Assembly (NCBI GenBank): GCA_002478275.1
Contig: DLMY01000053.1
Coordinates: forward strand, 26,347 to 90,346
Source: Actinobacteria bacterium UBA7524
GTDB lineage: Bacteria; Actinomycetota; Coriobacteriia; Anaerosomatales; UBA912
DNA length: 64,000 nt
Direction of reading: 5' to 3'
A program made the position numbers and the translations under genes. Below are positions 5,195 through 49,676 of this stretch, in pieces. Below the pieces are notes generated by a model. It had not been told where the DNA came from. It saw only the letters and a list, made by a program, of their open reading frames with translations, and searched no databases. Position 1 is the first letter of the stretch; each line of letters begins with the position of its first letter.

Positions 5195-5204
5195 CGAGCA
5201 CGCG

Positions 5205-5861
5205 ATGAGACTCGACATCAACAAGCCCATCCTCGACCGGAACGACACTCTTGCCGAGGAGAACCGCCGCCTGCTCGACGAACACGGTGTGTTCGTCCTC
5301 GATCTGATGGCCAGTCCTGGCGCGGGCAAGACCTCGACGATCCTGGCGACGATCGCGGCGCTGCGGGAACGCTACGCCATCGCGGTCATAGAGGGCGACA
5401 TCGCCAGTCGCGTGGACGCGGACAAGATATCGGCCCACGGCATCCCCGCCGTTCAGATCAACACCGGTGGCGCGTGCCATCTTGAGGCCGACATGATACG
5501 GCGTGCGCTCGATACCCTCGACCTGGACACGCTCGACCTCATCATCGTGGAGAACGTCGGCAACCTCGTGTGCCCTACGGAGTTCTACCTGGGCGAGAAC
5601 GCGAAGGTGATGATCCTCTCCGTACCCGAAGGCCATGACAAGCCGCTCAAATATCCGGGGATCTTCCAGATCGCCGAGGCGGTCGTTCTCAACAAGTACG
5701 ACACCCTGCCTGTGTTCGACTTCGACGAGGACGAGTTCCGCAGGGTGGTGCACTCGCTCAATCCGTCCGCCCCGGTCTTCGCGCTTTCGGCCACAAAGGG
5801 CGATGGCGTGTCGGATTGGGCAGGATGGCTGTCAGCACGCATCGAGTCCACACGTTCGTGA
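5205..5861 (+). CDS. hypB: hydrogenase nickel-incorporation GTPase HypB
   Basis: P-loop SPGAGKTS, the ENVGNLVCP metal-binding/switch motif and NKYD. ATG at 5205 lies within the longer 5025 ORF. Confidence 0.9.
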   Translation: MRLDINKPILDRNDTLAEENRRLLDEHGVFVLDLMASPGAGKTSTILATIAALRERYAIAVIEGDIASRVDADKISAHGIPAVQINTGGACHLEADMIRRALDTLDLDTLDLIIVENVGNLVCPTEFYLGENAKVMILSVPEGHDKPLKYPGIFQIAEAVVLNKYDTLPVFDFDEDEFRRVVHSLNPSAPVFALSATKGDGVSDWAGWLSARIESTRS

Positions 5862-16686: not shown

Positions 16687-16762
16687 GCCGACGTAGCTCA
16701 GCTGGTAGAGCAACGCACTCGTAATGCGTAGGTCAGGGGTTCGAGTCCCCTCGTCGGCTCCA
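16687..16762 (+). tRNA. tRNA-Thr: tRNA-Thr (anticodon CGT), CCA encoded
   Basis: Cloverleaf folded by hand: acceptor GCCGACG/CGTCGGC, D arm GCTC/GAGC, anticodon stem ACGCA/TGCGT with loop CTCGTAA, T arm AGGGG-TTCGAGT-CCCCT, discriminator T, then CCA. Confidence 0.9.
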
Positions 16763-16835: not shown

Positions 16836-18857
16836 TTACGTGCGAAACGCGCTGAGGGAATGCTCCAGCTCGGTACTGTGGCTCACTATTCCTTCGACCG
16901 AGGACTCGACCTGGCGCGCGGCGGATGCCGTGTCCGATGCAGCCGCCGTTACCTGTTGCATCGCCTGCACCACCTGTTCGGCGGCGGCGCGCTGTTCGTC
17001 GGCTGCAGCCGCGATCTCTCGAGCTGCCGCGGCGGTCGCCGCCATCTTGTCGACGATACCCGCGAACGCCTCCTCGCTCCGCTGTCCGCGCTCGGTGGCG
17101 TCGGCGACCTCTCGGCTCTGCCGCTCGGCTGCGGTCACGAGTGACGTGGAACCGTCGTGGATGGTATGCAGCAGCGATTCGATGCTGGAGGTCGAATCGG
17201 TGACCGACTCGGCCAGTGTTCTGATCTCTGTCGCCACGACCGCGAACCCGGCGCCTGCCTCACCTGCACGCGCCGCCTCGATCGCCGCGTTGAGTGCGAG
17301 GATCTTGGTCTGAGCGGCGATCGAGTCGATGATGCCGAGCACGTTGGTGATGTTGGTGGCGCTGTCGGCCAGCTGTTCTGCGGCCATTCTCGTCTTCTCG
17401 CTGTCGGCCGAGACGCGCCCGATACCTTCGATCGTCGACTCCAGCGTGCTCTCGCCCTCCTGCGCGGATTCGAGCGCGTCATCGGCCAGGTGCAACACGC
17501 GGTCGGCCGCGTCGGCTACTGCGCGATACGTCGCCGCCATCTCCTCTAGGGTGGCCGTCGTCTGGCTCACGGCCGACGCCTGCCTGCCGGAACCCTCCGA
17601 CTGCGTGCGCGCGGCGGCGCGGATGTCGTCCGATGAGGAACGGACCTCCTCGGCGGCCTGCTTAGCTCTGCCTATGACCGCTGCCAGGGTGCTTGTCATC
17701 GAGTTGAACGCCTCGCCGACGGTAACGGTCTCGCGTGTGCCGGTGGTCGGGACCTCGACGGTCAGGTCGCCACCGGTGATCGCAACCGCCGACTGGCCGA
17801 TCGCGGCAAGGGGGGAGGACACTCTGCGCGCGATGAACGAACCCGCGAAGAACGCCGCCGCCAAGCCGAAGATCGCCGCGCTGCCGAACTTGAGCACGAA
17901 CGCCCGGGAGGCAGCCGCGTACGGTGCCAGAGGCAGGCCGACGAAGAGCATCCCGATGGTCTCGCCGTCGGGGTCCTCGATCGGGTCATAGGCGGTCATC
18001 ATGTCCTGCCCGACGACGACGGCTTCGCCGCGATAGGGCTCCTCGGCATCTATCGTCGTTTCCCGGACCCGGTCCATGACGACCGTCCCGTAGGCCTTCG
18101 TCCCCTCTGCGGTGGTCACCGTCGTCGAGATGCGGACCTCGTGCTGGAAGATGGTCGCCGCTCCGTCGCTGCGCGACACGATGCGGTCGACGAGTGTGGA
18201 GGTCATGTTCACGGGCTCGACACCCATGAGAGCGCCCAGGACGACACCGTCGCTGTTCTTCACCGGCACGGTAGCGACAGAGCTCAGCGCTCCGTCGAGT
18301 TCCGGATGGATGACGGTTCCTCCGTCGGTGGGCTTGACCTCGATCGATGCCGCATCGATGAATCCGACTGCGACGAGTTCCTCGTTGGGGACGATGTCGA
18401 AGGTGATCACCGGGTCGTCTCCGAGTGCGCGCTGGACCGGACCGTAGTCGGCTCGCGCGATTGGCGAGGAGCCATGGCTGCCGGCCAGGGCCGTGGCGGA
18501 CCCGTTGTAGGCGAGCACGTACGTGTCCGTCGACTCTGCCACCGCTTGCGACAGTATCGCCTCGATCGCAGCCGTGTCCCTGCTGGCGAAGGCGTCTATC
18601 AACGCGCGGTCGGTCGCGATGGCTGTCAGTTCACGGGAGAGCGCCTCTTGGCTGGCGTTGACGACGTCGTGCGCCACCCTGATCCGGTCCTCGATCGTGC
18701 GAGCCGCCTCTTCATCCATCTGCGAGTTGAAGAGCGTGGTCGCGATGTAGCCTGCGATGAGCATGGGTACTATCGCGACCAGCAAGAACGCTATGGTCAA
18801 CCGGGCGAACAGCGTGGCTCTCGCGCCGAAGACCTTCGAAAGATCGATCCTAACCAT
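16836..18857 (-). CDS. methyl-accepting chemotaxis protein (extracellular Cache-like sensor, HAMP, MA signalling domain)
   Basis: The C-terminal highly conserved MCP hairpin region ([37 protein letters not shown]), a HAMP segment, two TM helices and a large periplasmic domain. The start is taken at MVRIDL (18857); the ORF is open to 18920. Confidence 0.88.
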
Positions 18858-19135
18858 GATTGCCCCCAAAACGTGCCGGCGGTCCGGGTTAGAAGTATGC
18901 ATCGGCAAACATTCTCGCACACATGAGTCGATACGAAATCATCATGCCGAGAAGCGCAGATTAGGAAAGATGTATACACTTTCGGTCGCGGGTTCGAAAA
19001 CCGCGCGATTCGTGTTGAAGCGTCACGCCAGGCTGTGATACGTTCACGGCAGGTTGCGGCCCTGAAACGGCGCCGCCGCCTCTGGCCGGGTGAGCACCCG
19101 GACCGACGACTGTCCTGGAGTATGAGAGGAGCGCG

Positions 19136-19453
19136 GTGAGCGTGGTGCCGGGGGGCCGTGCCGGAGGCCGTTACGCGGGTGACCGGAACGGTCCAGTGCA
19201 GGAACCACGCGCGTCAGCGCAGGACCGGCCGCCCGGACCCGAGGTGATTCCGGGCTCTCTCCTCGGCCCCTCTCTCATCGTCGCAGCCCTGGCCTTCATC
19301 ACCGTCCTCGTGAGCACGTTCTTCCTGTTCCTCTGGTCTTCAGCGTTCGACTCCGCCGGTGCGATCGGCGTGGCGTGGCTGCTGTTGTCTTGCGGGTCTC
19401 CCGTCGTCGGACTGGCATATGCTATGAGAGAGGGTGCCCTCACGTGGCGCTAG
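19136..19453 (+). CDS. small 2-TM membrane protein at the NuoA position of the complex-I-like operon (no NuoA motifs recognised)
   Basis: GTG after GAGAGGAG. Two hydrophobic helices. The stop lies 2 nt before the NuoB-like start. Confidence 0.45.
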   Translation: MSVVPGGRAGGRYAGDRNGPVQEPRASAQDRPPGPEVIPGSLLGPSLIVAALAFITVLVSTFFLFLWSSAFDSAGAIGVAWLLLSCGSPVVGLAYAMREGALTWR

Positions 19454-19455
19454 GC

Positions 19456-19917
19456 GTGCGGTCCTATGCGGCGCGCGTTCTAGGTGTCGTGCGCGCCCGA
19501 TCGCTTCGCTGCATCGTGAGCGGTCAGGTCGTCTGCTGTGCGGGTGGTTCGAACTGCGCGGATGTGGTCCGCGAGGCGGGTGTATGCGGGAGCGACACGT
19601 CCGAGTGCAGGACGGGGCTGGCTGACGTACTCGTCGTGACCGGCACCGTAACGGGCAAGACGGGCTCTTCGTTGCAGGAGTCATACGATGAGATGCGGGA
19701 ACCACGGTGGGTCGTGGCTGTGGGGGACTGCGCATGCACAGGCGGGCCGTTCCGTGAGTACCGGGGCGTGGTGCCGGGCACGAGGGAAGTACTCCCTGTG
19801 GACGAGAGTATCCTGGGATGTCCGCCCAGCGTCGAAAGGGTTCAGCAAGCCTTTGAGAGCCTTCGGGCGTCGGCGCGTGCGGATCACAGCTCGCGTCCGG
19901 ACGGAGCGACGCCTTGA
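19456..19917 (+). CDS. NuoB / NiFe-hydrogenase-small-subunit-like protein (Oxidored_q6 family), divergent
   Basis: VVCC... , ADVLVVTGTVT, EPRWVVAVGDCACTGGPF and PVDESILGCPP motifs. The start is uncertain: GTG 19456 is preferred and GTG 19516 is possible. Confidence 0.75.
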   Translation: MRSYAARVLGVVRARSLRCIVSGQVVCCAGGSNCADVVREAGVCGSDTSECRTGLADVLVVTGTVTGKTGSSLQESYDEMREPRWVVAVGDCACTGGPFREYRGVVPGTREVLPVDESILGCPPSVERVQQAFESLRASARADHSSRPDGATP

Positions 19918-21611
19918 GGCTCGATGTGAAGACCCTTGCCGAGGAGCTCGAGCAGGAAGGCGTCCCTCACGCCATCGAGGGAGATGCGCTTCAGGCGCAC
20001 CTGACGGTCGAGCCCGAGGACCTCGCCGGCGCCGCAGAGGTGCTGGCCCGGTCGGAGCACGTGGCGGCTCTCAGTGACTTCTTCGCCAGCGACACAGGCG
20101 ACGGCGTGGAGTTGACGTACCGGCTGCGGCTCTCCGATCTCGCGTCTGACGTCTTGCTTCGCTGTGCCATGTCGTACAGCACGCCTCTTGAGTCGCTGTG
20201 GACGGCTTTTCCCGCGGTGCTGATGTGCGAGCGCGAGGTGGCGGAGTTGTTCGGATTGAGACTGTCAGAGCATCCCAATCCGGTGCGGCTGCTCACCATG
20301 GCCGGGGCTGAGCCCATGATGCGGCACTCCGTCGCGCTGAGACATGAGGACGACTACGCAGCCGGCGAGGAGCCCTGGCAGACCGAGACTGACGCAGCGA
20401 CGCCCGGTGTCGCGTCACGGGCCGGGCGCCGTGGCGTCTCGCTTGAGGGTAAGCGGAGTGAGCGTCCCCACCGTGCGGCACCGATCGGGCTCACGCACGT
20501 CCCGGCCGGCGCCGGCACGGGACACTCCAGACGAGGACTCATCCGTCTTGCTCCGAGGTTCGATCCGGGTAGCGACGCTCCGGGGTTGACGCTTCGAGTC
20601 GTCGGCGAGAGCGTCCTGGCGGCCGAGGCCGACATGGGCTTCGCCCACCGGGGGATCGAGAGACTCTCCCAGGAGCGTCACCTTATGGAGCTGGGCGGGT
20701 TGCTGGCTCGTTTGGACCGTTCGGCTTCGGTCCACGCGCAACATGCTGCGGCGTTGGCGATCGAGCGCACCGTGCACGTCGAGGCCTCACCCAAAGGCGC
20801 ATGGCTGCGCTGTCTGTATGCCGAGCTGGCCAGGGTCGCGGGCCACCTCGGATGGCTTCAGGGATTCGTGAGCGACGCCGGTCTTCGTTCGCTGTCGGAG
20901 AGGGCGGCCAGGAACCGACAGGCGTTCCTCGGCATCGGTGAGCAGCTTGCCGGTGATGCCGGTGCCGGGTATGTGCTGCCAGGGGGAGTGTCCGCGGACA
21001 TGCCAGCCGCGCTGGACTCCAGTATCACGGAGCTTTGCGATGCGTTCGAACCGGACCTGGAGAGAATCGGGAGGAAGGTGCTGGGCAGCGGGCTGCTCAG
21101 GCGCAGACTGCACGGGCTGGCTGCGTTCGGCGCGCAGACTGCACGTGCGCTGGCTGTGACCGGTCCGAGCCTGAGAGCCTGCGGCATGGTCTGTGACGTA
21201 CGCCGGGACATGCCGTACGACGCATACGCCGAACTTGAGTTCGAGGTGCCGATCGGTAGCGTCGGTGATGCATGGGACCGGATGTCGGTGCGGATCGAGG
21301 AGATGCGGCAGTCGGTCGCTATGATTCGCCAGCTTGTTGCCGGACTACCCGAGGGCGCGTGCCGTACTCAAGCCGACAGCCCCTGGCGCGCGAGTCCGGG
21401 TGAGGCGTACGCGGCGGTCGAATCGGGCCGGGGAGAGCTCGGGGTCCACCTGGTCACCACGGGCGCTCGGAAGCCGCAGCGAGTCCGACTCAGGACACCC
21501 TCGCTGTTCGCCTGCCAACTCGCCGAGGAGATCCTGCCGGGGACGGAGCTCTCTGACGTGTTCCTCGTTCTCGGCAGTCTCGACATCGGCCTCGGGGAGG
21601 CTGAACGGTGA
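19914..21611 (+). CDS. fused NuoC-NuoD-like subunit (49-kDa / large-subunit homolog) without NiFe ligands
   Basis: The N-terminal 30-kDa-type domain and the C-terminal GFAHRGIERL, GPSLRACGM.CDVRRDMPYDAY, GDAWDR..VRIEEM and GSLDIGLGEAER match NuoD signatures. TTG start overlaps the NuoB-like stop (TTGA). Confidence 0.8.
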   Translation: MRLDVKTLAEELEQEGVPHAIEGDALQAHLTVEPEDLAGAAEVLARSEHVAALSDFFASDTGDGVELTYRLRLSDLASDVLLRCAMSYSTPLESLWTAFPAVLMCEREVAELFGLRLSEHPNPVRLLTMAGAEPMMRHSVALRHEDDYAAGEEPWQTETDAATPGVASRAGRRGVSLEGKRSERPHRAAPIGLTHVPAGAGTGHSRRGLIRLAPRFDPGSDAPGLTLRVVGESVLAAEADMGFAHRGIERLSQERHLMELGGLLARLDRSASVHAQHAAALAIERTVHVEASPKGAWLRCLYAELARVAGHLGWLQGFVSDAGLRSLSERAARNRQAFLGIGEQLAGDAGAGYVLPGGVSADMPAALDSSITELCDAFEPDLERIGRKVLGSGLLRRRLHGLAAFGAQTARALAVTGPSLRACGMVCDVRRDMPYDAYAELEFEVPIGSVGDAWDRMSVRIEEMRQSVAMIRQLVAGLPEGACRTQADSPWRASPGEAYAAVESGRGELGVHLVTTGARKPQRVRLRTPSLFACQLAEEILPGTELSDVFLVLGSLDIGLGEAER

Positions 21612-22612
21612 GCGCCGCGATCGCCTCCGCGATATCTCGGGCCTTCTTGACCGTCGCCGTGCTCGCGGCCAACGCGTTCCTGATGGCTTCGCTCTCCCGG
21701 GTTTCCTCACGGGCGGACCGGGCGGGGTACGGGCGGGTCAGGTTCGAGCCGCTGCGGCCTGTCTGGGAAGGCATCCGGCTGGCGGGCAAGGAGCAGGGAG
21801 CTCCTTGGGGCATCGTGCGAGGAGTGGGAGCCGTGCCGGTGCTCGCCGCGCTGTTTCTGGTGCTTGTCGCCTTCGGAGTGGTGCCGTACTCGGCCACCCT
21901 CCGGGTCGTGCGAACGGACACTGCGGTCATCTACCTGCTCGGAGTCTTGGTGATGTCCGTGTTGTGGCCGTTCCTTGCGGGATGGGCGAACGGGGATAGC
22001 CTGGCGATCGTGACGGGAATGCGCATCACCGCTCGCAGGACCATGTTCGTATCCGCGCTGGTCCTCTCGGTCGTTCCCGTGGTCATGTATGCCGGCGGCT
22101 TCGACTCGACGGTCATAGTGTCCGCTCAGTCGGGCGTGTGGCTTCGCGTCGTCCCTCGCTGGTTCGCCACGTTCCCGATGTTCTGGCCCTCGTTGGCGGT
22201 CTTCACATCAGCGTCGGCGGTCGCGTACGGGGCGTCGCCGAATGGGGCGTTCGAGCGCTCTGTCGGTCTTGGAGACGAGTCTTCACTCGCGCCCACTCCG
22301 CTCCTTTGTGGAGTGCAGCGCCTTGTGGAGCATGCGTACCTCTTCATAGTGTCGGCACTGACCGTCATCCTGTTCTTCGGTGGCTGGACGGTGCCCAGAG
22401 TCTCCCTTGCGGGTGTCGCGCCTCTGGTCTTCCTGGTCAAGGTCTACGCATGGGCGACGGTGGTGATGTGGGTGCGCAGGAGGTTGCCTGCTCTGCGCCA
22501 GAGTGACCTGATGGCGTTGGGATGGAGATGGCTCGTCCCGTTGTCGTTCGTCTGGATAGTGGTGTGCGCCCTTCTGACGGGATTGTTCGACCTGGGTCAG
22601 GGGGTGAGCTGA
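21608..22612 (+). CDS. NuoH-like membrane subunit, divergent
   Basis: About 8 TM segments. GWANGDSLAIVTGMR (compare GWASNSKYALLGGLR) and WVRRRLPALRQSDLMALGWRWLVPLS (compare W.RAT.PR.R.DQLM..WK.LLPL). GTGA overlap with the upstream gene. Confidence 0.7.
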   Translation: MSAAIASAISRAFLTVAVLAANAFLMASLSRVSSRADRAGYGRVRFEPLRPVWEGIRLAGKEQGAPWGIVRGVGAVPVLAALFLVLVAFGVVPYSATLRVVRTDTAVIYLLGVLVMSVLWPFLAGWANGDSLAIVTGMRITARRTMFVSALVLSVVPVVMYAGGFDSTVIVSAQSGVWLRVVPRWFATFPMFWPSLAVFTSASAVAYGASPNGAFERSVGLGDESSLAPTPLLCGVQRLVEHAYLFIVSALTVILFFGGWTVPRVSLAGVAPLVFLVKVYAWATVVMWVRRRLPALRQSDLMALGWRWLVPLSFVWIVVCALLTGLFDLGQGVS

Positions 22613-22613
22613 C

Positions 22614-23114
22614 GTGTACGCTTCGGACCTCGCCTTCGCCGTCCTTGCACTCGCAGCACTTGGCGGTGCGGCCGGGGTGTTGCTTTCGAGGAGCACGGTG
22701 CATGCCGTGCTGTGGTCGTTGGAGTCGAGTGTGGCTGTAGCGGGTCTCTACGTGTTGCTGTCAGCGGAATTCCTCGCACTCGCCGTGGTGATTCTCTGGG
22801 GAGGTGCCGCCAGTCTGGCGTTGTTGGTCACCATCGCCGTGACAGCACGACACGGTGAGCCGGTGTCGCGTCCGCGCGAGGGGTCGTTGAGAGCAGCCGT
22901 ACTCGCGGTCGCGTTCGCGGCCCTTATGCTCGCGAGGATCGCGGGAGCGGATCTGGCCACCGCCGAAACGGCAGTGGCACCCCGTATGCGCGACCTCGGG
23001 GAGGCCCTGTTCGCGGAACCGGCGCTGATGGCCGCTTCAGGAGCTCTGTCCCTGATGCTTCTGCTCGTCATGATCGCGGGAGTCTGGTGGTCACGGGGAG
23101 GCGATGGGCGATGA
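22614..23114 (+). CDS. NuoJ-like membrane subunit
   Basis: RSTVHAVLWSL...AGLYVLLSAEFLALAVVILWGGA parallels RN.IH.AL.L...AG.YV.L.A.FL...QVIVYAGA of NuoJ/Nqo10. Confidence 0.65.
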   Translation: MYASDLAFAVLALAALGGAAGVLLSRSTVHAVLWSLESSVAVAGLYVLLSAEFLALAVVILWGGAASLALLVTIAVTARHGEPVSRPREGSLRAAVLAVAFAALMLARIAGADLATAETAVAPRMRDLGEALFAEPALMAASGALSLMLLLVMIAGVWWSRGGDGR

Positions 23115-23431
23115 GTGTGGGACCGGGCGCCTTTCTCGCGTTGGCTGCGGTGCTTTTCGCAGCTGGCCTCTATGGAGCGGTGGCCAGACGAGGACCTCTT
23201 GCGGTGTTGATGTCTCTTCAGATGATGGCGATCGCGGTGAATCTGAACATCGTGACCTTCACGCGGTTTGTCACACCGGCAGAGCAGGCCGGGAAGCTGC
23301 TGCCCGTGTTCTCCCTGACTGTCGCGGTGTTGCATCTCGGCCTGGGCGTGGCGCTCGTCTCAGGAGCCAGTCGACGTGCACGTTCTGTTCAGCGCGGGTC
23401 TGCCGGGCCTGCCGGGGCGGGTGAGCGATGA
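23111..23431 (+). CDS. NuoK-like membrane subunit with both canonical membrane glutamates substituted
   Basis: Aligned by eye to E. coli NuoK (RRN.LFMLIGLEIMINA / AAAEASIGLAL). Here the equivalents read RRGPLAVLMSLQMMAIA / VAVLHLGLGVAL. ATGA overlap. Confidence 0.65.
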   Translation: MSVGPGAFLALAAVLFAAGLYGAVARRGPLAVLMSLQMMAIAVNLNIVTFTRFVTPAEQAGKLLPVFSLTVAVLHLGLGVALVSGASRRARSVQRGSAGPAGAGER

Positions 23432-24861
23432 TGGGCGGCTTCACACAGTTCGTGCCCGAGGCGGCATTGCTCGTGCCTGTTCCCGTGGCGCTACTGCTGG
23501 GGTCACGCTTGCGCGAACGCTGGATCGCATGGCTGGCGATGATATCGTGCGGCGTCGCCGGTGTCAGCGCATGGTACGCGCCCACCATGCTGGACCAGGC
23601 GTCGGCGGTCACGACGACGCTCGATACCACGGCAGGCGCGGCACGGCTGGCCATCTGCGTACTCGCCGCATTGTGGCTCGCGTGGGTCGCGGCGCGCGGG
23701 GCAGGCGCGGAGCGGTCCGGAGAAGCGGTCGGGCTGGCGCTGCTCAGTACCCTCGGGGGCCTGCTTCTTGCGAGCGCCACGGACCTGGTCGTGGCCTTCG
23801 TGGCGATGGAGTTGACGGTTCTGCCCGCCTATGTGCTCCTCGGCTATTCGCGTCACGACGTCCCGGTCCTAAAAGGCGTGCTCAAGCAGATGACCCGTTC
23901 CGCGTTGGCCTCGATGATCGCCCTGTACGGCATATCGTTTCTCTACGGGTTGACGGGGGCCACATCGTTCGAGGGTATCGCCACATCGTTGCCGGAGGCC
24001 GGCCCGCTGGGTGCGACGGGGGCGATTCTGGCGGTCGGCGGACTTCTGGCACGCTTGACGTTGCTGTACCGGTGCGCATCGGCCCGTTCCGGGGTGGCCG
24101 GGTCATCCGTGTTCACAGCGTTCGTGGCGAGCGTTCCGGCATTCTCCATGAGCGTGTTCCTCGCGCAGTTCTTGTCGCAGGCACTCACGGTACGCTCGCT
24201 CCAGACGATACTCGTCGCGGGCGCCGTGTTCTGCCTGGCCGTCGGGCTGTACGTGATCGTGCGGGAGCAAGAGCCAAGAGAGTTGCTCGCCGGAGCGGGT
24301 ACAGTGCACATAGGGTTTCTCATGGCTGGCCTGGCTGTGCTGGTAGCGGCCTCACCCGGATCGTCCATCGACGCGGTTCCGGTGCAGGTGTCACAGCTGG
24401 CGGTGGTCGCGCCTCGGGTCGACGCGCTCGTCATCTACGCGTTCACCTACTCCATCGCCGCACTCGCGCTTGGGCTGCTTCTGGCGGGAACAGAAGGAGA
24501 GGGACCGCGGTACGGGCGTCGGCTCGCCATGCGCGCGGCTGCGGTGCTGCTGGCATCGCTTGCAGGTGTGCCTCCCCTGGCGGGCTTTGCAGGCAGATGG
24601 CTGTTGCTCAGATCCGTCCACGAGGCTGGTTTCGGCTGGCTCGTGGCCACAGGGGTCGCAGTAAGCATCGTCTCCGCTTGGTACGTCGTGCGAGCCGCCC
24701 TATCGCGCGCTGGCTCGGCCGAAGCACAGGCGACCGCCGAGGAGGAGCGCATCACCGGTAGCGGTCCGGGCGGATGGTTGTCGGAAGACCGCCTCTCGCT
24801 CTCCCTTGCGGTCTCTGCCGTACTCGTGGGTGGTGCGGTCCTCTGGGTCTTCTGGTTCTGA
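23428..24861 (+). CDS. single antiporter-like subunit (NuoN/NuoM/MrpD family, Proton_antipo_M), degenerate
   Basis: About 14 TM segments. The TM5-type AMELTVLPAYVLLGY motif is present. The TM7/8 region reads GGLLARLTLLYRCASARSG instead of ..K....PFH.W.PD. ATGA overlap with the NuoK-like gene. Confidence 0.65.
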   Translation: MMGGFTQFVPEAALLVPVPVALLLGSRLRERWIAWLAMISCGVAGVSAWYAPTMLDQASAVTTTLDTTAGAARLAICVLAALWLAWVAARGAGAERSGEAVGLALLSTLGGLLLASATDLVVAFVAMELTVLPAYVLLGYSRHDVPVLKGVLKQMTRSALASMIALYGISFLYGLTGATSFEGIATSLPEAGPLGATGAILAVGGLLARLTLLYRCASARSGVAGSSVFTAFVASVPAFSMSVFLAQFLSQALTVRSLQTILVAGAVFCLAVGLYVIVREQEPRELLAGAGTVHIGFLMAGLAVLVAASPGSSIDAVPVQVSQLAVVAPRVDALVIYAFTYSIAALALGLLLAGTEGEGPRYGRRLAMRAAAVLLASLAGVPPLAGFAGRWLLLRSVHEAGFGWLVATGVAVSIVSAWYVVRAALSRAGSAEAQATAEEERITGSGPGGWLSEDRLSLSLAVSAVLVGGAVLWVFWF

Positions 24862-24986
24862 GACGGGGGCGGGGGTGTCGTGCAGGACCGTCATAGCCGC
24901 AGCGCTTTGCAGGCGCGCTGACGGGTACACTAACTGACGTGTTCCCTAGGTCGACCCGAACCGCGTCCGATACGAGGAGTTGCAGG

Positions 24987-26243
24987 ATGTACGATTCCGA
25001 AGATCATCCGACGGACTACGTGACTGTCGAGGGGCCTTTGCCTGTTTGCGACTACACCGGCGAAGCGGCGGATGAACCCTGCGAGGAGCCGGCCACCGTC
25101 AAGCGTTGGTCGAGCGCTGCGGTCATCACCGCGTCGGCGTTGGGAGCACTTGCCGGTGGACTTCTGGTGGCGGCCGCCCTGACGTGGGTTTTCGGTGCAT
25201 GGCCAGGATCCAGGCCGTTCCAGCCGACCGGTCAGGGAGGCGCGAGCATCAGCCCCATCACCATCGAGCCTGGTGACGACATCAACGTCGCCGTGGCCGT
25301 GGCGGCCAAGGTCACCCCCAGCGTGGTGAACGTGAGGATCGAGCGACGCGTCCGGGACCCGTTCACAGGTGCGGTCGGTCTCGTCGAGGCAGGTAACGGC
25401 AGCGGGGTCATCATCCGTTCCGAGGGCTACGTCCTGACCAACTACCACGTAATCGAGAACGCAGACCGGATCGTCCTGACGGTGGGAGTCGAAGACGTCG
25501 ATGCCGATGTGGTGGGGGTCGACCCCTCCACCGACCTTGCGGTCCTGTCGATAGCAGGAGGGCCATATCCTGCGGCAGAGATCGGCTCCTCGGCGAATCT
25601 CGAAGTAGGGCAGTTCGTGCTCGCGGTCGGCAGCCCCTTCGGCCTGGAAAAGACCGTGACCTCGGGTATCGTCTCCGCTCTGCAACGCTCCAGTCTGGCG
25701 CAGGGCGGGCGCGACATCACGGCATACACCAATCTCATCCAGACCGACGCCGCCATAAATCCGGGCAACTCCGGCGGAGCACTCGTTGACGAACAGGGCC
25801 GACTGATCGGCATCAATACGCTTATCCAGTCCCCCTCGGGTACGGTCGGGGCGCCGCAATCCGCCGGGATCGGCTTCGCAATCCCCGTGGATTCGGCGAT
25901 CAACGTCGCGGAACAGCTTATCGAGACCGGGCGGGCCATTCACCCGTACATGGGCGTCTCGACGCTGACGATCGATCGCGCGACGGCTTCCCAGTTCGGG
26001 TTGCCGGTCTCACGAGGGGCACTGGTGCAGCTCGTCGAGCCCGATTCTCCCGCGGATGAGGCAGGCCTTCGCCGAGGAGACATCATCGTGCGGATCGATA
26101 ACCGCGACATCGGCGGGGTCGAGGACGTGTTCGCCTCGGTGAGGGCAGCCGAGGTCGGTGAGACCCTGGAGGTCACCATCGTGAGGGGCGATACCGAGCG
26201 AACGCTGGAAGTGACACTGGGCTCCGATGCGGAGCGACGGTAG
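24987..26243 (+). CDS. HtrA/DegP-family (S1C) serine protease with TM anchor and PDZ domain
   Basis: TNYHV (His), D..VL (Asp), GNSGGAL (Ser) and a C-terminal PDZ (GDIIVRIDN). ATG at 24987 after GAGGAG. Confidence 0.88.
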   Translation: MYDSEDHPTDYVTVEGPLPVCDYTGEAADEPCEEPATVKRWSSAAVITASALGALAGGLLVAAALTWVFGAWPGSRPFQPTGQGGASISPITIEPGDDINVAVAVAAKVTPSVVNVRIERRVRDPFTGAVGLVEAGNGSGVIIRSEGYVLTNYHVIENADRIVLTVGVEDVDADVVGVDPSTDLAVLSIAGGPYPAAEIGSSANLEVGQFVLAVGSPFGLEKTVTSGIVSALQRSSLAQGGRDITAYTNLIQTDAAINPGNSGGALVDEQGRLIGINTLIQSPSGTVGAPQSAGIGFAIPVDSAINVAEQLIETGRAIHPYMGVSTLTIDRATASQFGLPVSRGALVQLVEPDSPADEAGLRRGDIIVRIDNRDIGGVEDVFASVRAAEVGETLEVTIVRGDTERTLEVTLGSDAERR

Positions 26244-27245: not shown

Positions 27246-28955
27246 GTGATCGAGACCCTCAGTGCACTTGTCGTCGATGCCCTGCGGGCAGCGCGTGACT
27301 CCGAGGCGCTGGACCTGACGGAACTTCCACATCCGGACTTCGAGCGACCGCGTGATCCCTCCCATGGCGACTGGTCCACGAACGTGGCCATGCGTACGGC
27401 TAAGGCCGCCGGCATGCCGCCGCGCCAGCTGGCGGAGATAGTGGCGTCACGAATGGCCGGTCATCCGGACATCGAGGCGATCGAGGTCGCCGGCCCCGGC
27501 TTCCTGAACATCCGGCTCTCAGCCGCCGCTCTGCAGAGAGTGTTGCGTGAGGCGCGCGAGCAAGGTCCCCGTTTCGGCTCGAACGATGAGGGAAGCGGCC
27601 GCCGTGTTCAGGTGGAGTTCGTGTCAGCGAACCCCGTTGGCCCTATGCACGTGGGACATGGTCGATGGGCGGCTCTGGGTGACAGTATGGCCAGGGTGCT
27701 CGAACACGCTGGCTGGGTTGTACAGCGGGAGTTCTATGTCAACGACGCCGGGGTGCAGATGGACACGTTCGCCAAGTCCGTCGCTGCAAGGTACCTCGAG
27801 CTATGCGGACATGAAGTCGAGTTCGGAGAGGACTGGTATCAGGGCGCCTACATCACGGAGATCGCGCGGGAGATACTCGCATCCGAGGGCGAGTCCTGGG
27901 CCAACGCCGATCCGGCGAGCCGGGAGGCGCATTTCAGAGAGACCGCGTATCGCCAGGTACTCGATCACCTGAGCAGAGTCCTGCATGGGATGGGCGTCGA
28001 CTTCGACGTCTGGTTCTCGGAGCGCACGTTGCACCAGCGTGGTGGTGACGGGACGACCGCCGTCGAGAGGGCGATCCAGAGGTTGGACGAGGCCGGGCAC
28101 ATCTACGAGCTTGATGGCGCAGTGTGGTTCCGCTCCACCGAGTTCGGTGACGACAAGGACAGGGTCCTGAAGAAGGCCGACGGGGACTACACGTACTTCG
28201 CGGCGGACATCGCATATCACGCGGACAAGTTCGACAGGGGCTTCGATCGAGTCATAGACATCTGGGGAGCCGACCATCACGGTTATGTGAAACGAATGGA
28301 GGCCGCGGTCGCCGCCCTGGGCCATCCGGGCAAGCTGGACCTGGTGATCGGCCAGCTCGTGAACCTTTTTCGTGGCGGGGAAGTCGTACGCATGTCTAAG
28401 CGTACGGGAGAGATGGTCACGTTCGAAGACCTCCTGGAGGAAGTCGGGGTCGACGCCGCACGCTACTTCTTCCTGCGCCGGTCGACCGATCAGCCACTCG
28501 ACTTCGACATCGAGTTGGCGAAAGAGCAGAGCAGCGACAACCCTGTCTACTACGTGCAGTACGCCCACGCCCGTATATGCGCGGTACTGCGCAAGGGAGC
28601 AGGGGCGGAGACGGACGATACCGGGATCGACATCGAGGCGACCGCAGCCAGGATCGTTGACCCGGAAGCCCCCTTGCAGCTGTTGGTGGCACCGGCGGAA
28701 CTCGCACTCATGCGTAAACTCGCTGAGTTCGAAGAGGTTATCGAGATCGCCGCACGCCAGCTTGCACCATTCAAGTTGACGCGTTACGCAGAGGACCTGG
28801 CTGCGGCATTCCACCAGTTCTACACGGTCTGTCGAGTTGTCGATCCCGAGGAGCCCGAGCTTACCGCCGCACGGCTGTATGCGGTGGACGCGGCAAGGAT
28901 AGCGCTTGCCAACGTGCTCGGACTCATCGGGGTGAGCGCACCGGAACGCATGTGA
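27246..28955 (+). CDS. argS: arginine--tRNA ligase
   Basis: SANPVGPMHVGH (HIGH-type), the MSKRTG (KMSKS-type) motif, and the anticodon-binding DALR C-terminus. GTG at 27246 after AAGGAGA. Confidence 0.92.
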   Translation: MIETLSALVVDALRAARDSEALDLTELPHPDFERPRDPSHGDWSTNVAMRTAKAAGMPPRQLAEIVASRMAGHPDIEAIEVAGPGFLNIRLSAAALQRVLREAREQGPRFGSNDEGSGRRVQVEFVSANPVGPMHVGHGRWAALGDSMARVLEHAGWVVQREFYVNDAGVQMDTFAKSVAARYLELCGHEVEFGEDWYQGAYITEIAREILASEGESWANADPASREAHFRETAYRQVLDHLSRVLHGMGVDFDVWFSERTLHQRGGDGTTAVERAIQRLDEAGHIYELDGAVWFRSTEFGDDKDRVLKKADGDYTYFAADIAYHADKFDRGFDRVIDIWGADHHGYVKRMEAAVAALGHPGKLDLVIGQLVNLFRGGEVVRMSKRTGEMVTFEDLLEEVGVDAARYFFLRRSTDQPLDFDIELAKEQSSDNPVYYVQYAHARICAVLRKGAGAETDDTGIDIEATAARIVDPEAPLQLLVAPAELALMRKLAEFEEVIEIAARQLAPFKLTRYAEDLAAAFHQFYTVCRVVDPEEPELTAARLYAVDAARIALANVLGLIGVSAPERM

Positions 28956-28965
28956 CGAACTTGCC

Positions 28966-28992
28966 TGTGGACAATGTGGATACTGTGGAAAA
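28966..28992. repeat. three abutting 9-bp direct repeats TGTGGAcaa / TGTGGAtac / TGTGGAaaa (reverse complements of DnaA-box-like 9-mers)
   Basis: Read directly. TGTGGACAA is the reverse complement of TTGTCCACA (high-GC actinobacterial DnaA-box consensus). The other two each differ by 1 nt from TTATCCACA. Confidence 0.5.
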
Positions 28993-29054
28993 GCCCTGCT
29001 CAGATACCGTTTATCGCGCCAAATGCCCGTTCGACAAGTAGTGCGAAGAATCGC

Positions 29055-29082
29055 TTGCATTGTGCTCGCGATAGCCTAGTAT
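29055..29082 (+). promoter_or_regulatory. candidate sigma-70-type promoter (TTGCAT-16 nt-TAGTAT)
   Basis: The hexamers and their spacing were read directly. It lies in the AT-richer island upstream of the thioredoxin-like gene. Confidence 0.4.
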
Positions 29083-29273
29083 GTGGTGTGCGAGGTCGTT
29101 GGAGAATCCGGATGGGCCGCAGCCGCAAGGTGAAGGTTCGCTCGGAGGGCACAGCGGCCTCGCACCTTTGTGTCATCGTCGGATCGGCATCGTTCGCCGC
29201 AGATGACGGCGATTCAGGACTCACCCGGGTATCATCACGATAGGCCGCCGCGTCGTCCGTCGCAGGAGATGAC

Positions 29274-29717
29274 ATGAATGTTCGAGGCCTCAGAACCCGG
29301 GTGAGACGAGAGTCCTTGTTCGTGGCCCTCGTCATTCTGACGACAGCCTTGCTCGTCGGCTGCGCTCCATCGGGGTCAGGGTCCCGTGGGTCATCAGGCG
29401 CCGAACCAGGCGTCGCATGGCAGCCGCGGGAATCCGGCTTGCCGGCGTTCTACTACTTCGGTGATCCCGGTTGACCCGCGTGCGTCACGATGAAGCCTGT
29501 GGTCGACAGGCTGCGAGGCGAGTACGCGGGCACGGTCGAGTTCGTGGTCTTCGCCGAGCTGAGCAGCAGGCCGGACGCCAGCGATTTCGCGGTCAAGCAG
29601 CGAGTCTCGGTCATACCGACGATGGTCCTGGTTTCCGAGGACGGCACGGAACTCCAAAGGGTCATCGGCTCCTTGCCCGAGGCTGACTTGCGAGAACTGC
29701 TCGACGCCGTGCGATAG
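29274..29717 (+). CDS. thioredoxin-fold lipoprotein; candidate selenoprotein with in-frame TGA (29472-29474) giving a U-P-A-C redox motif
   Basis: ORFs 29274-29474 and 29490-29717 are in the same frame, separated only by a TGA. Lipobox LLVGC. Read-through gives FYYFGDPG-U-PACVTMKPVVDRL...VSVIPTMVL (thioredoxin CxxC position and cis-Pro). Confidence 0.6.
29475..29530 (+). promoter_or_regulatory. SECIS-like stem-loop immediately 3' of the in-frame TGA
   Basis: Outer helix CCCGCGT (29475-81) / ACGCGGG (29524-30). Apical helix AGCCTGT (29494-500) / ACAGGCT (29506-12) with loop GGTCG. Confidence 0.45.
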
Positions 29718-29871
29718 TCGCCGACGTCGCCCGGCGGCCACCGCTCCACACCTCCTGACCCGACGGGCCGTAGTCACGCCCGGGCGAGCGGATGGCATGT
29801 CGCGCTCGGGTACAATACGGTGATCGAGTGGGTCCCGGATGTGGACTCGAAGCCTTTCGGAGGGACGTAGG

Positions 29872-36032: not shown

Positions 36033-36033
36033 A

Positions 36034-49672: not shown

Positions 49673-49676
49673 GCGC

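What the first reader, a model, noticed from the sequence alone, without database searches (positions are those of the whole stretch)
19136..24861. Minimal, highly divergent complex-I-like operon: (small TM)-NuoB-NuoCD-NuoH-NuoJ-NuoK-NuoN only
Seven ORFs are packed with overlapping or abutting start/stop codons: a 2-nt gap at 19456, TTGA at 19914, GTGA at 21608, a 1-nt gap at 22614, and ATGA at 23111 and 23428. They follow the canonical nuo gene order but encode only homologs of B, fused C-D, H, J, K and one antiporter-like subunit, preceded by a 2-TM ORF in the NuoA position. The cluster lacks the NADH module (E/F/G), any NuoI/EchF-type 2x[4Fe-4S] ferredoxin subunit, and NuoL and NuoM. The relatives I know (Nuo14/13, the 11-subunit NDH-1/Fpo type, Ech/Hyc/Mbh/Mbx/Mbs group-4 hydrogenase-type complexes) all retain a NuoI-like subunit, and most have two or more antiporter-like subunits. 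The order B-CD-H-J-K-N looks like a canonical nuo operon with E, F, G, I, L and M deleted, not like an Ech/Mbh layout. The flanking genes (a chemoreceptor, htrA) offer no electron-input partner. Every subunit is far more divergent than the housekeeping genes around it, yet all frames are intact. This is a candidate for a new, stripped-down member of the complex I superfamily whose electron donor, acceptor and ion-pumping status are unknown.
Basis: partly seen in the sequence, partly recalled or inferred. Interest (0 to 1): 0.85.

Follow-up and report, generated by a model that had tools for sequence, protein, structure and literature searches.

The report
Degenerate, shrunken complex I operon
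This is a cut-down, fast-evolving leftover of the 11-gene complex-I-like (nuo) operon that close relatives carry at the same spot; it has lost three genes and nearly every catalytic residue, yet all its reading frames are kept open, and a similar 7-8-gene set occurs in a more distant related lineage.

Summary
Seven tightly coupled ORFs encode NuoA' (2 TM), NuoB, fused NuoCD, NuoH, NuoJ, NuoK and one NuoN-type subunit. No NuoE/F/G/I/L/M or 2x[4Fe-4S] motif occurs anywhere in the 64 kb.

It is not an old, separate branch of the superfamily. The organism is an uncultured Anaerosomatales-type Coriobacteriia bacterium. Relatives (ArgS 75-79% identical) carry canonical nuoA-B-C-D-H-I-J-K-L-M-N in exactly this slot, MCP(-)|nuo|htrA-rlmH-argS. 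The closest relative (ArgS 82%) has deleted the MCP gene and the whole operon.

The window's genes evolve about 4-10x faster than their canonical orthologs and keep only 40-61% of clade-invariant residues (flanking genes keep 90-99%). Lost:
- the quinone-site His and Tyr
- the NuoH and NuoA quinone-cavity loops
- both NuoK glutamates
- the NuoN TM7, TM8 and TM12 lysines

The four N2 cysteines remain.

It is not a neutral pseudogene: 0 stops against 10-29 expected, and about 29 indels all in frame.

Similar reduced sets exist in more distant relatives (L093, L097), probably by independent reduction. A comparable second locus was mentioned only in passing for Parvivirga.

Verdict: a catalytically dead but still translated reduction intermediate, a new variant of a known kind. 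A new function is not excluded.

The parts
16836..18920 (-). Methyl-accepting chemotaxis protein (Cache_3-Cache_2/HAMP/MCPsignal). A conserved upstream neighbour transcribed divergently from nuoA; context, not a subunit.
   Evidence: Pfam families on the identical contig L001. It is 51% identical over its full length to the MCP that sits in the same position and orientation next to canonical nuoA in L101.
18921..19135 (+). Divergent intergenic region between the MCP gene and nuoA'. Presumed promoter region; it contains a GAGAGGAG Shine-Dalgarno motif before the GTG at 19136.
   Evidence: Sequence read directly. The consensus scan found no sigma-70-type promoter here.
19136..19453 (+). nuoA' (105 aa), a truncated NuoA. 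TM1 is replaced by an Arg/Gly/Pro-rich N-terminus. The YECGxEP loop is degenerate. The TM2 FD(I/V)E motif is replaced by LVST (Asp and Glu lost). TM2, TM3 and the C-terminal EGAL(T)WR are kept.
   Evidence: PF00507, 30.7 bits, profile positions 44-99. Alignment with five canonical NuoA. In-frame tblastn alignment to L101 NuoA residues 33-118. Two hydrophobic segments against three or more in canonical NuoA.
19444..19917 (+). nuoB' (157 aa from GTG 19444, 153 aa from GTG 19456). All four cluster-N2 cysteines are kept (CC, GDCACTGG, GCPP). The N-terminus is shortened, the CCAIE glutamate is lost, and the loop before RQADV is rewritten with four extra cysteines.
   Evidence: PF01058, 67 bits. Residue alignment to M. 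smegmatis NuoB 8e9g_B. Clade alignment. Cysteine positions. Start-codon context.
19914..21611 (+). nuoCD' fusion (565 aa): C domain about residues 30-135, a Cys-free linker, D domain about 200-565. The quinone head-group ligands are replaced: Y. lipolytica H95 (by my numbering T. thermophilus H38) is S220, and Y144 (Y87) is R269. The beta1-beta2 loop GPQHPSTHG reads APRFDPGSD.
   Evidence: PF00329 plus PF00346. Best NCBIfam hit is NuoD NF004739, 269 bits against a cut-off of 360; no hydrogenase large-subunit family is hit. Alignment to 6gcs_C. Clade alignment in which all eight canonical sequences keep QHPSTHG and DRxDY.
21608..22612 (+). nuoH' (334 aa). The TM pattern is kept. The TM1-2 loop, the TM5-6 loop (QTPFDxSEAESEL..EYS) and the conserved YE glutamate are degenerate. 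It shares two 1-residue insertions and the C-terminal tail ..LFDLGxxVS only with the canonical NuoH of L013.
   Evidence: PF00146, 118 bits. PDB alignments. Clade alignment. Hydropathy.
22614..23114 (+). nuoJ' (166 aa), five hydrophobic segments. The TM3 motif reads AEF...ILWGGA, with Trp where the aligned P. denitrificans NuoJ (8qby_J, VVVYVGA) has Tyr.
   Evidence: PF00499, 57 bits. PDB alignment. Hydropathy.
23111..23431 (+). nuoK' (106 aa), three TM. Both conserved membrane glutamates are replaced: TM2 E to Q (LMSLQMM) and TM3 E to H (VAVLHLG).
   Evidence: PF00420, 47 bits. Alignment to NdhE 7wff_E. Clade alignment.
23428..24861 (+). nuoN' (477 aa), the only antiporter-like subunit, NuoN-type along its whole length. 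The TM5 Glu is kept. TM7 Lys is Arg and the PFHxWxPDxYEGAP motif is lost. TM8 Lys is Ala. TM12 Lys is Arg.
   Evidence: PF00361. TIGR01770 NuoN, positions 7-423 of the protein, 113 bits. Alignments to 6hum_B and 8qby_N. Best BLAST match is the NuoN of L010, not its L or M.
24939..26243 (+). htrA (trypsin-PDZ protease), 78 nt downstream of nuoN' with no strong terminator between. It is the conserved downstream neighbour of both canonical and reduced operons; context, possibly co-transcribed.
   Evidence: 72-77% identical to the htrA that follows canonical nuoN in L010 and follows PSP1 in L009. Terminator scan: one weak 5-pair terminator-like stem (24837-24849) overlapping the end of nuoN', terminator-like sites near shuffle expectation overall.

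Best explanation
The cluster is the positional ortholog of the 11-gene, NuoEFG-less nuoABCDHIJKLMN operon of Anaerosomatales-type Coriobacteriia, reduced in place.

Shown:
- In this lineage nuoI and nuoL-nuoM were removed cleanly, with start/stop coupling re-formed. nuoC and nuoD fused, and NuoA lost TM1.
- The remaining genes evolved several-fold faster than their orthologs and drifted toward GC-rich-codon amino acids.
- Nearly every residue the known mechanism needs was replaced: the quinone His and Tyr, the NuoH and NuoA cavity loops, the E-channel carboxylates in NuoA, NuoH and NuoK, and the NuoN lysines. The N2 cysteines remain.
- The reading frames are under selection, ribosome-binding motifs and transmembrane patterns are kept, and amino-acid replacement is only slightly more conservative than random.

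Inferred:
- The products can no longer form a ferredoxin- or NADH-to-quinone, proton-pumping enzyme. There is no electron wire to N2, no quinone site and no intact proton path.
- A small membrane subcomplex (H-A'-J-K-N' capped by B'-CD') is probably still made, but as a low-constraint remnant.
- Frame-breaking mutations are selected against, perhaps because they would be polar on the downstream htrA-rlmH or would yield toxic truncated membrane proteins.
- It is an intermediate on a route whose end point, complete deletion, is seen in the sister lineage.
For: Synteny:
- L101/L010 (ArgS 77%) reads MFS-FumC-Tmk-HolB-PSP1-..-MCP(-)-nuoABCDHIJKLMN-htrA-rlmH-argS.
- The same arrangement, in full or in part, is seen in L011, L013, L014, L016, L020, L023, L024, L032 and L056.
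- The window's MCP is the ortholog of the L101 MCP.
- L009 (ArgS 82%) goes from PSP1 and a tRNA-Thr straight to htrA.

Rate and constraint:
- Identity to the L010 orthologs is H 35%, J 43%, K 49%, N 35%, against 64-77% for the flanking genes.
- The window's terminal branch is 0.62-1.25 in the nuo trees and 0.10-0.13 in the HtrA and ArgS trees.
- Only 40-61% of clade-invariant columns are retained, against 90-99% in flanking genes and 75-100% in leave-one-out controls.
- Branch dN is 0.33-0.62 against 0.05-0.18 on canonical branches.
- Lys falls from 1.5% to 0.5% and Arg rises from 3.6% to 6.2%.

Lost residues. N2 cysteines kept.

Frame selection:
- 0 stops against 10-29 expected in neutral simulations (minimum 4).
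- About 29 internal indels relative to the ortholog, all in frame.
- Shine-Dalgarno-like motifs precede every gene and the TM segments are kept.

Vertical origin:
- Insertions and the C-terminal tail are shared with L013 NuoH.
- Diagnostic sites favour the near-relative group 12:5, against 8:18 for L093 plus L097 (p=0.014).
Against: - The same gene set (A-[B]-C-D-H-J-K-N, without I, L or M) occurs in at least one other lineage (L093, L097). One pair of such NuoD genes (L096 and L097) has an apparent dN/dS of 0.39, against 0.30 for a canonical pair. This fits a retained new function better than a transient stage.
- The clean excisions with restored translational coupling, and the conserved N2 cysteines, also hint at continued use.
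- dS is saturated (pS 0.5-0.7), so the branch ratios of 0.56-0.81 are rough.
- No expression data exist, and no close relative with the same reduced operon was found, so present-day selection on the protein sequence cannot be measured.
- The polarity and toxicity reasons for frame maintenance are untested ideas.
Confidence: 0.5

Rival explanations
1. Neofunctionalised minimal complex. The A-B-CD-H-J-K-N set is a stable, selected end state with a new role that needs neither NuoI, nor a quinone site, nor NuoL/M. Possible roles are a redox-independent ion-handling or scaffold complex, or an N2-only module with a new partner. It would have been reached convergently in several lineages.
For: - The same subunit set recurs at the same genomic slot in more distant lineages: L093 after PSP1, L097 before htrA.
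- The species order ((window, L009), L101), L093 has the states reduced, absent, canonical, reduced, which implies independent origins.
- Four diverged degenerate NuoD lineages exist: P0143, P0144, P0146 and P0299.
- L096 and L097 NuoD have dN/dS 0.39, against 0.30 for a canonical pair.
- Frames are kept and translational coupling was restored.
- The N2 cysteines are kept in the window and in L097.
- The same canonical-invariant columns are released in all three sets, about twice as often as chance predicts for NuoH (31 columns against about 15 expected by my own calculation from the counts).
Against: - No new conserved motif is shared by the reduced sets.
- They degenerate differently. Their indels in the NuoH loops differ. 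L093 lacks NuoB altogether. L093 and L097 keep the NuoN lysines that the window has lost.
- Replacements at formerly invariant sites are close to random (BLOSUM62 -0.68 against -0.94 +/- 0.10 under neutrality).
- Composition drifts with mutational bias.
- The sister lineage simply deleted the operon.
- No shared partner gene is present (MCP, DUF5648 and an FAD protein are the respective upstream genes).
Confidence: 0.3
2. An old, separate paralogous or horizontally moving family of reduced Nuo clusters. One example may be the second locus 'NuoACDHJKLM' reported next to a canonical operon in Parvivirga hydrogeniphila. Such a cluster would have replaced the canonical operon in this slot by recombination.
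For: - Neighbour-joining on concatenated H+J+K+N groups the window with L093 and L097 at 100% bootstrap.
- Identical derived states are shared: NuoD NYVRPGGV to GYVxPGGV and EVDR to E.ER, Tyr to Arg in the window and P0143, and NuoK TM2 Glu to Gln.
- Parvivirga has both kinds of locus (PMC9686372).
Against: - Both flanks, including the MCP|nuoA junction, are the same as in canonical relatives.
- NuoH shares insertions and its C-terminal tail with L013. NuoK is 54% identical to L016, against 44% and 36% to L093 and L097.
- Diagnostic sites favour the near-relative group.
- The long branches and the shared GC-driven composition shift can explain the NJ grouping.
- None of the indels is shared among the reduced sets.
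- Whether the Parvivirga locus is related at all was not tested.
Confidence: 0.1
3. One reading: an active, stripped-down complex-I-type oxidoreductase or ion pump with an unknown donor and acceptor.
For: The N2 ligands are intact. All core folds are recognisable. Frames are kept. The F1Fo ATP synthase is present, so membrane energetics matter to this organism.
Against: - There is no NuoI-type cluster carrier anywhere in the 64 kb.
- The quinone His and Tyr are replaced.
- The NuoH and NuoA cavity loops are degenerate.
- Both NuoK glutamates and three of four key NuoN residues are replaced.
- Constraint is strongly relaxed.
Confidence: 0.07
4. A neutrally decaying pseudogene array whose frames look intact only because stop codons are rare in GC-rich DNA.
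For: The window is 62-68% GC and long spurious ORFs are common. Divergence and loss of catalytic residues are very high.
Against: Neutral simulations at equilibrium GC 0.66-0.80 give 10-29 stops on average (never fewer than 4) for even a conservative neutral phase, and 0 are seen. About 29 indels are all in frame. Homology runs the full length of every gene in a single frame. Shine-Dalgarno motifs are retained.
Confidence: 0.03

Closest known systems
11-subunit, NuoEFG-less complex-I-like enzyme (Nuo11), as in Anaerosoma tenue and Parvivirga hydrogeniphila (nuoNMLKJIHDCBA, PMC9686372), Desulfitobacterium hafniense (PMC11238625), and the cyanobacterial/plastid NDH-1 and Fpo type (PMC3144371)
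   Same: Direct ancestor by synteny and sequence. Same gene order, and the same NuoA, B, C, D, H, J, K and N homologs, which are Nuo-type rather than hydrogenase-type. No NADH module. Same genomic slot between the MCP gene and htrA.
   Different: Lacks NuoI, NuoL and NuoM. C and D are fused (also seen in some canonical relatives, L020 and L056). NuoA lacks TM1. The quinone-site and proton-path residues are replaced. Evolution is 4-10x faster.
Reduced nuo clusters of related uncultured lineages found here (L093/L094: A-C-D-H-J-K-N; L097-L100: A-B-C-D-H-J-K-N), and possibly the second locus 'NuoACDHJKLM' of Parvivirga hydrogeniphila (PMC9686372)
   Same: Same subunit set without I, L or M. Degenerate NuoD quinone site (Tyr to Arg or His). 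NuoK TM2 glutamate lost. Same genomic slot (after PSP1, or before htrA). Same GC-driven composition shift.
   Different: Only 30-44% identical to the window's subunits, no closer than canonical ones. L093 has no NuoB. L093 and L097 keep most of the NuoN lysines and the NuoK TM3 glutamate. C and D are separate. Origin is probably independent. The Parvivirga locus is known to me only from the paper's text and was not compared.
[quoted passage not shown]
   Same: Small complex-I relatives with one or few antiporter-like subunits and, for Ehr, a catalytic subunit that has lost its metal ligands (Ehr as cited in PMC4758237).
   Different: Those belong to the group 4 hydrogenase branch. Here NuoD' matches NuoD models and not PF00374, the gene order is the nuo order, and separate NuoA, J and K are present. 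From my own knowledge, Ech retains the NuoI-like EchF.
Decay of plastid ndh genes in some plant lineages (PMC8621559)
   Same: Lineage-specific dispensability of an 11-subunit NDH-1-type complex, with partial and complete gene loss in related lineages.
   Different: As far as I know, plastid ndh decay proceeds through frameshifted pseudogenes. Here every remaining frame is intact and coupled. I did not read that paper beyond its abstract line.
Mrp cation/proton antiporter (PMC7419157)
   Same: A redox-independent membrane complex built from NuoL/M/N-like and NuoK-like subunits, and so a conceivable model for a redox-free role.
   Different: No MrpB, E, F or G. NuoH, B, C and D are present. In the window the antiporter-like subunit has lost its key lysines.

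Membership tests
Nuo11 / NDH-1-type complex I-like enzyme (11 core subunits) | All eleven core subunits A, B, C, D, H, I, J, K, L, M and N are encoded | tested here: not met
   NuoI, NuoL and NuoM are absent from the operon and from the 64-kb window. There is no ferredoxin-type Cys motif in any frame, no tblastn remnant, and Pfam on the other genes finds none. The rest of the genome was not visible.
Nuo11 / NDH-1-type complex I-like enzyme (11 core subunits) | Descent from the nuo lineage: subunits match Nuo rather than hydrogenase or Mrp models, and the gene order is the nuo order | tested here: met
   The best NCBIfam hits are NuoA, B, D, H, J, K and N models. The cluster is the syntenic ortholog of canonical operons.
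Nuo11 / NDH-1-type complex I-like enzyme (11 core subunits) | Quinone-site ligands in NuoD (T. thermophilus H38 and Y87; Y. lipolytica H95 and Y144) | tested here: not met
   These positions are S220 and R269 in the alignment to 6gcs_C. All eight canonical clade sequences keep QHPSTHG and DRxDY.
Nuo11 / NDH-1-type complex I-like enzyme (11 core subunits) | Four cysteine ligands of cluster N2 in NuoB | tested here: met
   CC, GDCACTGG and GCPP align with the N2 ligands of 8e9g_B and of the clade sequences. Actual cluster binding cannot be tested here.
Nuo11 / NDH-1-type complex I-like enzyme (11 core subunits) | Conserved protonatable chain: NuoK TM2 and TM3 Glu; NuoN TM5 Glu and TM7, TM8 and TM12 Lys; NuoA TM2 Asp and Glu; NuoH loop carboxylates | tested here: not met
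   NuoK has Q and H. NuoN has E, R, A and R, and the PFHxWxPDxYEG motif is lost. NuoA FDIE reads LVST. The NuoH YE glutamate and most of SEAESEL are lost.
Group 4 [NiFe]-hydrogenase / Ehr-type complexes | Large subunit of the hydrogenase lineage (PF00374, or NiFe-ligand motifs or their vestiges), a NuoI/EchF-like subunit, and an ech/hyc/mbh gene layout | tested here: not met
   There is no PF00374 hit. NuoD models score 200-270 bits. The hydrogenase-type homologs (P0017-P0021) are the weakest hits in the database search. There is no NuoI-like gene.
Mrp antiporter | The MrpA-G subunit set | tested here: not met
   Only weak sub-threshold MrpC and MrpD similarities appear beneath the NuoK and NuoN hits. 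No other Mrp genes are in the window.
Neutral pseudogene array | Stops and frameshifts accumulate at the neutral rate | tested here: not met
   0 stops against a mean of 10-29 expected. About 29 indels, all in frame.
Reduced Nuo (A-[B]-C-D-H-J-K-N) clusters of Anaerosomatales relatives (defined here) | Same gene set without I, L or M, at the PSP1...htrA slot, with a degenerate NuoD quinone site | tested here: met
   The window, L093 and L097 share these features. Common descent of the reduced state is doubtful.

The most novel reading that the evidence does not exclude
Complex-I-derived operons in Anaerosomatales-type Coriobacteriia have repeatedly converged on a stable 7-8-subunit assembly: H-A-J-K-N with a C-D cap, with or without NuoB and its N2 cluster. 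This assembly has abandoned NuoI, the quinone site and the distal antiporters, and does a new job without the canonical electron wire. That would make it a previously unrecognised functional class of complex I relative, of which this window holds the most derived example.
Probability: 0.3. Interest if true: 0.8.

Novelty: new variant of a known kind. Interest (0 to 1): 0.55.

Why it matters
Complex I relatives are usually sorted into 14-, 12- and 11-subunit enzymes or 'absent' (PMC3144371). This locus, its canonical orthologs, a sister lineage with a clean deletion and independently reduced clusters together give a rare view of how such a machine is dismantled. The electron wire (NuoI) and the distal pump modules (NuoL, NuoM) go first, and catalytic residues then erode in every remaining subunit, while the reading frames stay open.

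If the remnant has a function, it defines a minimal core of complex I that assembles and works without the canonical electron wire. If it has none, it is a clear case of open reading frames being maintained without enzyme function.

It is also a warning for annotation. These genes would be named 'NADH-quinone oxidoreductase subunits' and counted as a respiratory complex in metabolic reconstructions of these subsurface Coriobacteriia.

Tried and rejected
1. The genome-contig scan with NuoCD found only about 30% identical relatives (an Actinomycetota MAG and Thermococcus) and not the source genome, so it gave no context.
2. The word-indexed and the exhaustive protein searches with NuoCD found no close relative of the degenerate protein apart from itself. 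No within-lineage dN/dS was therefore possible. L001 is 100% identical to the window. L097-L100 are identical to each other, and L093 and L094 differ by 2 nt.
3. Nei-Gojobori dN/dS: synonymous sites are saturated (pS 0.5-0.7), so I use the ratios only comparatively.
4. A tandem-paralog idea (reduced plus canonical operon side by side between PSP1 and htrA) was rejected. L101 shows PSP1-..-MCP-canonical nuo-htrA with nothing in between.
5. An L/N chimera as the origin of the single antiporter gene was rejected. NuoN' matches NuoN models and the L010 NuoN along its whole length.
6. A ferredoxin domain hidden in the C-D linker or elsewhere was rejected. The linker has no cysteines, and no CxxCxxCxxxC motif exists in any frame.
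7. The NJ tree joining all the reduced operons is treated as long-branch and compositional attraction, given.
8. The four extra cysteines in NuoB' as a new cluster site were not pursued. Cysteine gain is general in the reduced proteins (NuoD 0 to 6-12).
9. The promoter and terminator scan gave nothing useful.
10. Structure prediction was not run. With an alignment dominated by canonical homologs it would return the canonical fold regardless.

Full report
**1. What is in the sequence**

ORF listing and reading of the DNA confirm seven same-strand ORFs from 19136 to 24861.

Pfam assigns them, each above its gathering score, to NuoA (C-terminal two thirds only), NuoB, NuoC+NuoD (fused), NuoH, NuoJ, NuoK and a NuoL/M/N-type antiporter subunit. 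NCBIfam places every one under Nuo models, with NuoN specifically for the last. All score far below the equivalog cut-offs.

Nothing else in the window belongs to the family:
- No CxxCxxCxxxC ferredoxin motif occurs in any of the six frames.
- tblastn with relatives' NuoI, NuoL and NuoM finds no remnant.
- Pfam on 40 further genes shows housekeeping genes and an intact F1Fo ATP synthase, but no nuo, ech, mbh or mrp gene.

GC1/GC2/GC3 of the ORFs is typical of the window's coding genes. Each gene is preceded by a purine-rich Shine-Dalgarno-like motif, and the hydrophobic segments lie where they do in a canonical ortholog.

**2. Whose genome, and what relatives have at this place**

The ArgS 2.3 kb downstream has many 72-82% identical relatives. 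Those that carry a name are labelled Coriobacteriia, Anaerosomatales or Actinomycetota MAGs. NuoCD, by contrast, has no relative above 42% identity among 5.8 billion proteins or in an exhaustive HMMER search of 1.84 billion cluster representatives.

Context look-ups and a metagenome scan anchored on htrA settle the origin:
- Relatives with ArgS 75-79% identical carry a canonical nuoA-B-C-D(or CD)-H-I-J-K-L-M-N directly upstream of htrA-rlmH-argS. These are L010, L011, L013 and L016. L014 (no argS in the fetched stretch) and the more distant L020, L023, L024, L032 and L056 have the same operon, and short contigs show nuoN before htrA.
- The full neighbourhood on the L010 contig (L101) is MFS-FumC-Tmk-HolB-PSP1-..-MCP(-)-nuoA...N-htrA-rlmH-argS. 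This is the window's neighbourhood gene for gene, including the divergently oriented Cache/HAMP chemoreceptor, which is 51% identical over its full length.
- The closest relative of all (L009, ArgS 82%, HolB 81%) goes from PSP1 and a 96%-identical tRNA-Thr straight to htrA. It has neither the chemoreceptor nor any nuo gene.

The window's cluster is therefore the positional ortholog of an 11-gene operon. The lack of NuoEFG is ancestral to the order, as the description of its first isolates also states (PMC9686372). What is specific to this lineage:
- loss of nuoI, nuoL and nuoM
- fusion of C and D, which also occurs in some canonical relatives
- loss of NuoA TM1

**3. How far it has degenerated**

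Identity to the syntenic orthologs of L010 is H 35%, J 43%, K 49% and N 35%. The flanking HtrA, RlmH and ArgS are 72%, 64% and 77% identical, and canonical NuoH sequences are 47-81% identical among themselves.

In HtrA and ArgS trees the window sits beside L009 and L013 on an ordinary branch (0.10-0.13). In the nuo trees its terminal branch is 0.62-1.25.

At columns invariant in all canonical clade members the window keeps only 40-61% of residues (A 40, B 51, D 61, H 44, J 61, K 61, N 58). It keeps 90-99% in the flanking genes. Each canonical member tested the same way keeps 75-100%.

Three-taxon Nei-Gojobori estimates put branch dN at 0.33-0.62, against 0.05-0.18 for canonical branches. dS is saturated, so the apparent ratios of 0.56-0.81 are upper-side estimates.

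Composition has drifted toward GC-rich-codon amino acids: Ala, Arg, Gly and Ser are up, and Lys, Asn, Ile, Met, Phe and Tyr are down.

The residues lost are the ones the enzyme mechanism relies on:

| Subunit | Canonical feature | In the window |
|---|---|---|
| NuoD | quinone His in GPQHPSTHG | APRFDPGSD (His replaced by Ser220) |
| NuoD | quinone Tyr in DRxDY | LDR (Tyr replaced by Arg269) |
| NuoH | TM1-2 loop, TM5-6 loop (QTPFDxSEAESEL..EYS), YE glutamate | degenerate |
| NuoA | TM1, YECGxEP loop, FDIE | absent or replaced |
| NuoK | two membrane glutamates | Gln and His |
| NuoN | TM5 Glu | kept |
| NuoN | TM7 Lys | Arg |
| NuoN | TM8 Lys | Ala |
| NuoN | TM12 Lys | Arg |
| NuoN | PFHxWxPDxYEGAP motif | lost |
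| NuoB | four cluster-N2 cysteines | kept |

With no NuoI there is no known electron path to N2. With no His/Tyr site and a rewritten cavity there is no canonical acceptor site. The proton path is broken in every membrane subunit. That the complex cannot work as a redox-driven pump is an inference from established structure-function knowledge of complex I. It was not measured.

**4. It is nevertheless not a neutral pseudogene**

I started from the canonical L101 genes and let them mutate neutrally at equilibrium GC 0.66-0.80.
- Down to the observed identity, simulations give 17-29 in-frame stops on average, and never fewer than 9.
- A conservative neutral phase, down to only 70% or 55% identity, still gives 10-23 stops, with a minimum of 4.
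- The window has none.

About 29 internal indels separate the window's proteins from their orthologs, and all are in frame. Homology runs the full length of every gene in one frame.

Replacements at formerly invariant sites are only slightly more conservative than neutral expectation. Mean BLOSUM62 is -0.68 against -0.94 +/- 0.10, and hydrophobic-to-hydrophobic replacement is 0.55 against 0.44 +/- 0.05.

The pattern is strong selection against frame disruption and weak selection on the sequence itself.

**5. Other reduced clusters**

The nearest database relatives of the D domain include short NuoD-like proteins that also have broken quinone sites: P0143, P0144, P0146 and P0299. Their contigs show the same reduced gene set:
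- L093/L094: FumC-Tmk-HolB-PSP1-DUF5648-[A-C-D-H-J-K-N], with no NuoB at all.
- L097-L100: PemK-FAD protein-[A-B-C-D-H-J-K-N]-htrA.

These keep more of the machinery, namely the NuoN TM5 Glu, TM7 Lys and TM12 Lys and the NuoK TM3 Glu. They share loss of the quinone Tyr and of the NuoK TM2 Glu.

A neighbour-joining tree groups the window with them at 100% bootstrap. I regard that as an artefact, for these reasons:
- The window's NuoH shares two single-residue insertions and its C-terminal tail only with L013.
- Its NuoK is closest to L016.
- Sites that discriminate the two canonical subgroups favour the near-relative group 12:5 for the window, against 8:18 for L093 plus L097 (Fisher p=0.014).
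- None of the loop deletions is shared.
- All reduced sets show the same GC-driven compositional shift.
- The species order by HolB is ((window, L009) 81%, L101 70-75%), L093 56%, with the states reduced, absent, canonical, reduced.

The better-supported reading is at least two independent reductions to the same subunit set.

The paper on the first Anaerosomatales isolates mentions, without analysis, a second locus 'NuoACDHJKLM' in Parvivirga hydrogeniphila beside a canonical operon. Whether it is of this kind was not tested. Surveys of complex I types list only 14-, 12- and 11-subunit forms (PMC3144371). I found no description of this reduced class.

**6. Interpretation**

Best explanation (confidence about 0.5): a reduction intermediate formed in place. 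It is catalytically dead as a quinone reductase and proton pump. It is probably still translated and may still assemble as a small membrane subcomplex. It is kept open by selection against frame-breaking mutations, possibly because these would be polar on htrA-rlmH or would produce harmful truncated membrane proteins. Both reasons are untested.

Main rival (about 0.3): the reduced set is a selected end state with a new function that does not use the canonical electron wire. Its recurrence, the restored coupling, the retained N2 ligands and the canonical-like dN/dS of one reduced pair speak for it. The near-random replacements, the lineage-specific patterns of degeneration and the sister deletion speak against it.

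Other readings:
- Replacement by an old paralogous or transferred family: about 0.1.
- An active stripped-down enzyme: about 0.07.
- A neutral pseudogene: about 0.03.

**7. Verdict**

This is a new variant of a known kind, of moderate interest. It would matter more if the reduced assemblies prove functional.

Noticed in passing
window 16687-16762: A tRNA-Thr(CGT) lies just after the PSP1 gene and is 96% identical to the same tRNA in relative L009. In L009 it is followed by an AT-rich stretch and then htrA, so the deletion of the MCP gene plus nuo in that lineage begins right after this tRNA. This may point to a mobile-element-mediated event.
   Followed up: partly
window 28955-29839: Relatives L009-L012 have a 453-aa Orn/DAP decarboxylase (lysA-like) gene directly after argS. 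The window has only about 880 bp with a 75-aa ORF before homoserine dehydrogenase, so this gene appears to be missing at this position.
   Followed up: no
window 19456-19917 (NuoB' residues 19, 34, 44, 51): Four extra cysteines lie in the rewritten loop around the N2 CC motif, where canonical NuoB has none. Cysteine gain is general in the reduced proteins (NuoD has 0 Cys in L101, against 8 in the window's fused NuoCD', 12 in L097 and 6 in L093), so this is probably drift. A new metal site is not excluded.
   Followed up: partly
window 21608-24861; L093; L097: The membrane subunits of all the reduced operons show the same compositional drift relative to canonical orthologs (Lys 1.5% to 0.4-0.8%, Arg 3.6% to 5.9-6.8%, Ile and Met halved). 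This probably inflates their similarity to each other in distance trees.
   Followed up: yes
L093 6915-11846; L097 1189-7962: The reduced cluster in L093 has no nuoB (nuoA is followed directly by nuoC), so that complex would have no Fe-S cluster at all. In L097 a 381-aa FAD-binding, geranylgeranyl-reductase-like gene sits 87 nt upstream of nuoA on the same strand.
   Followed up: partly
window 49325-55737: An F1Fo ATP synthase gene cluster is present (a, b, delta, alpha, gamma and beta subunits confirmed by Pfam). It lies about 25 kb downstream of the nuo remnant. A comparable proximity (about 26 locus-tag numbers apart) holds for Anaerosoma tenue (PMC9686372).
   Followed up: partly
window 34455-36963: Two long ORFs (34455-36032 and 35884-36963) have no Pfam hit. 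Relatives have a CpgS_N-domain gene and an unannotated gene at the corresponding place. Strand and frame choice here is uncertain because of the high GC content.
   Followed up: no
window 3718-5861: TatA and TatC genes are followed by a CobW/HypB/UreG-type GTPase gene. This could be a hydrogenase or metallocentre maturation factor, and so relevant to which redox enzymes the organism still has.
   Followed up: no
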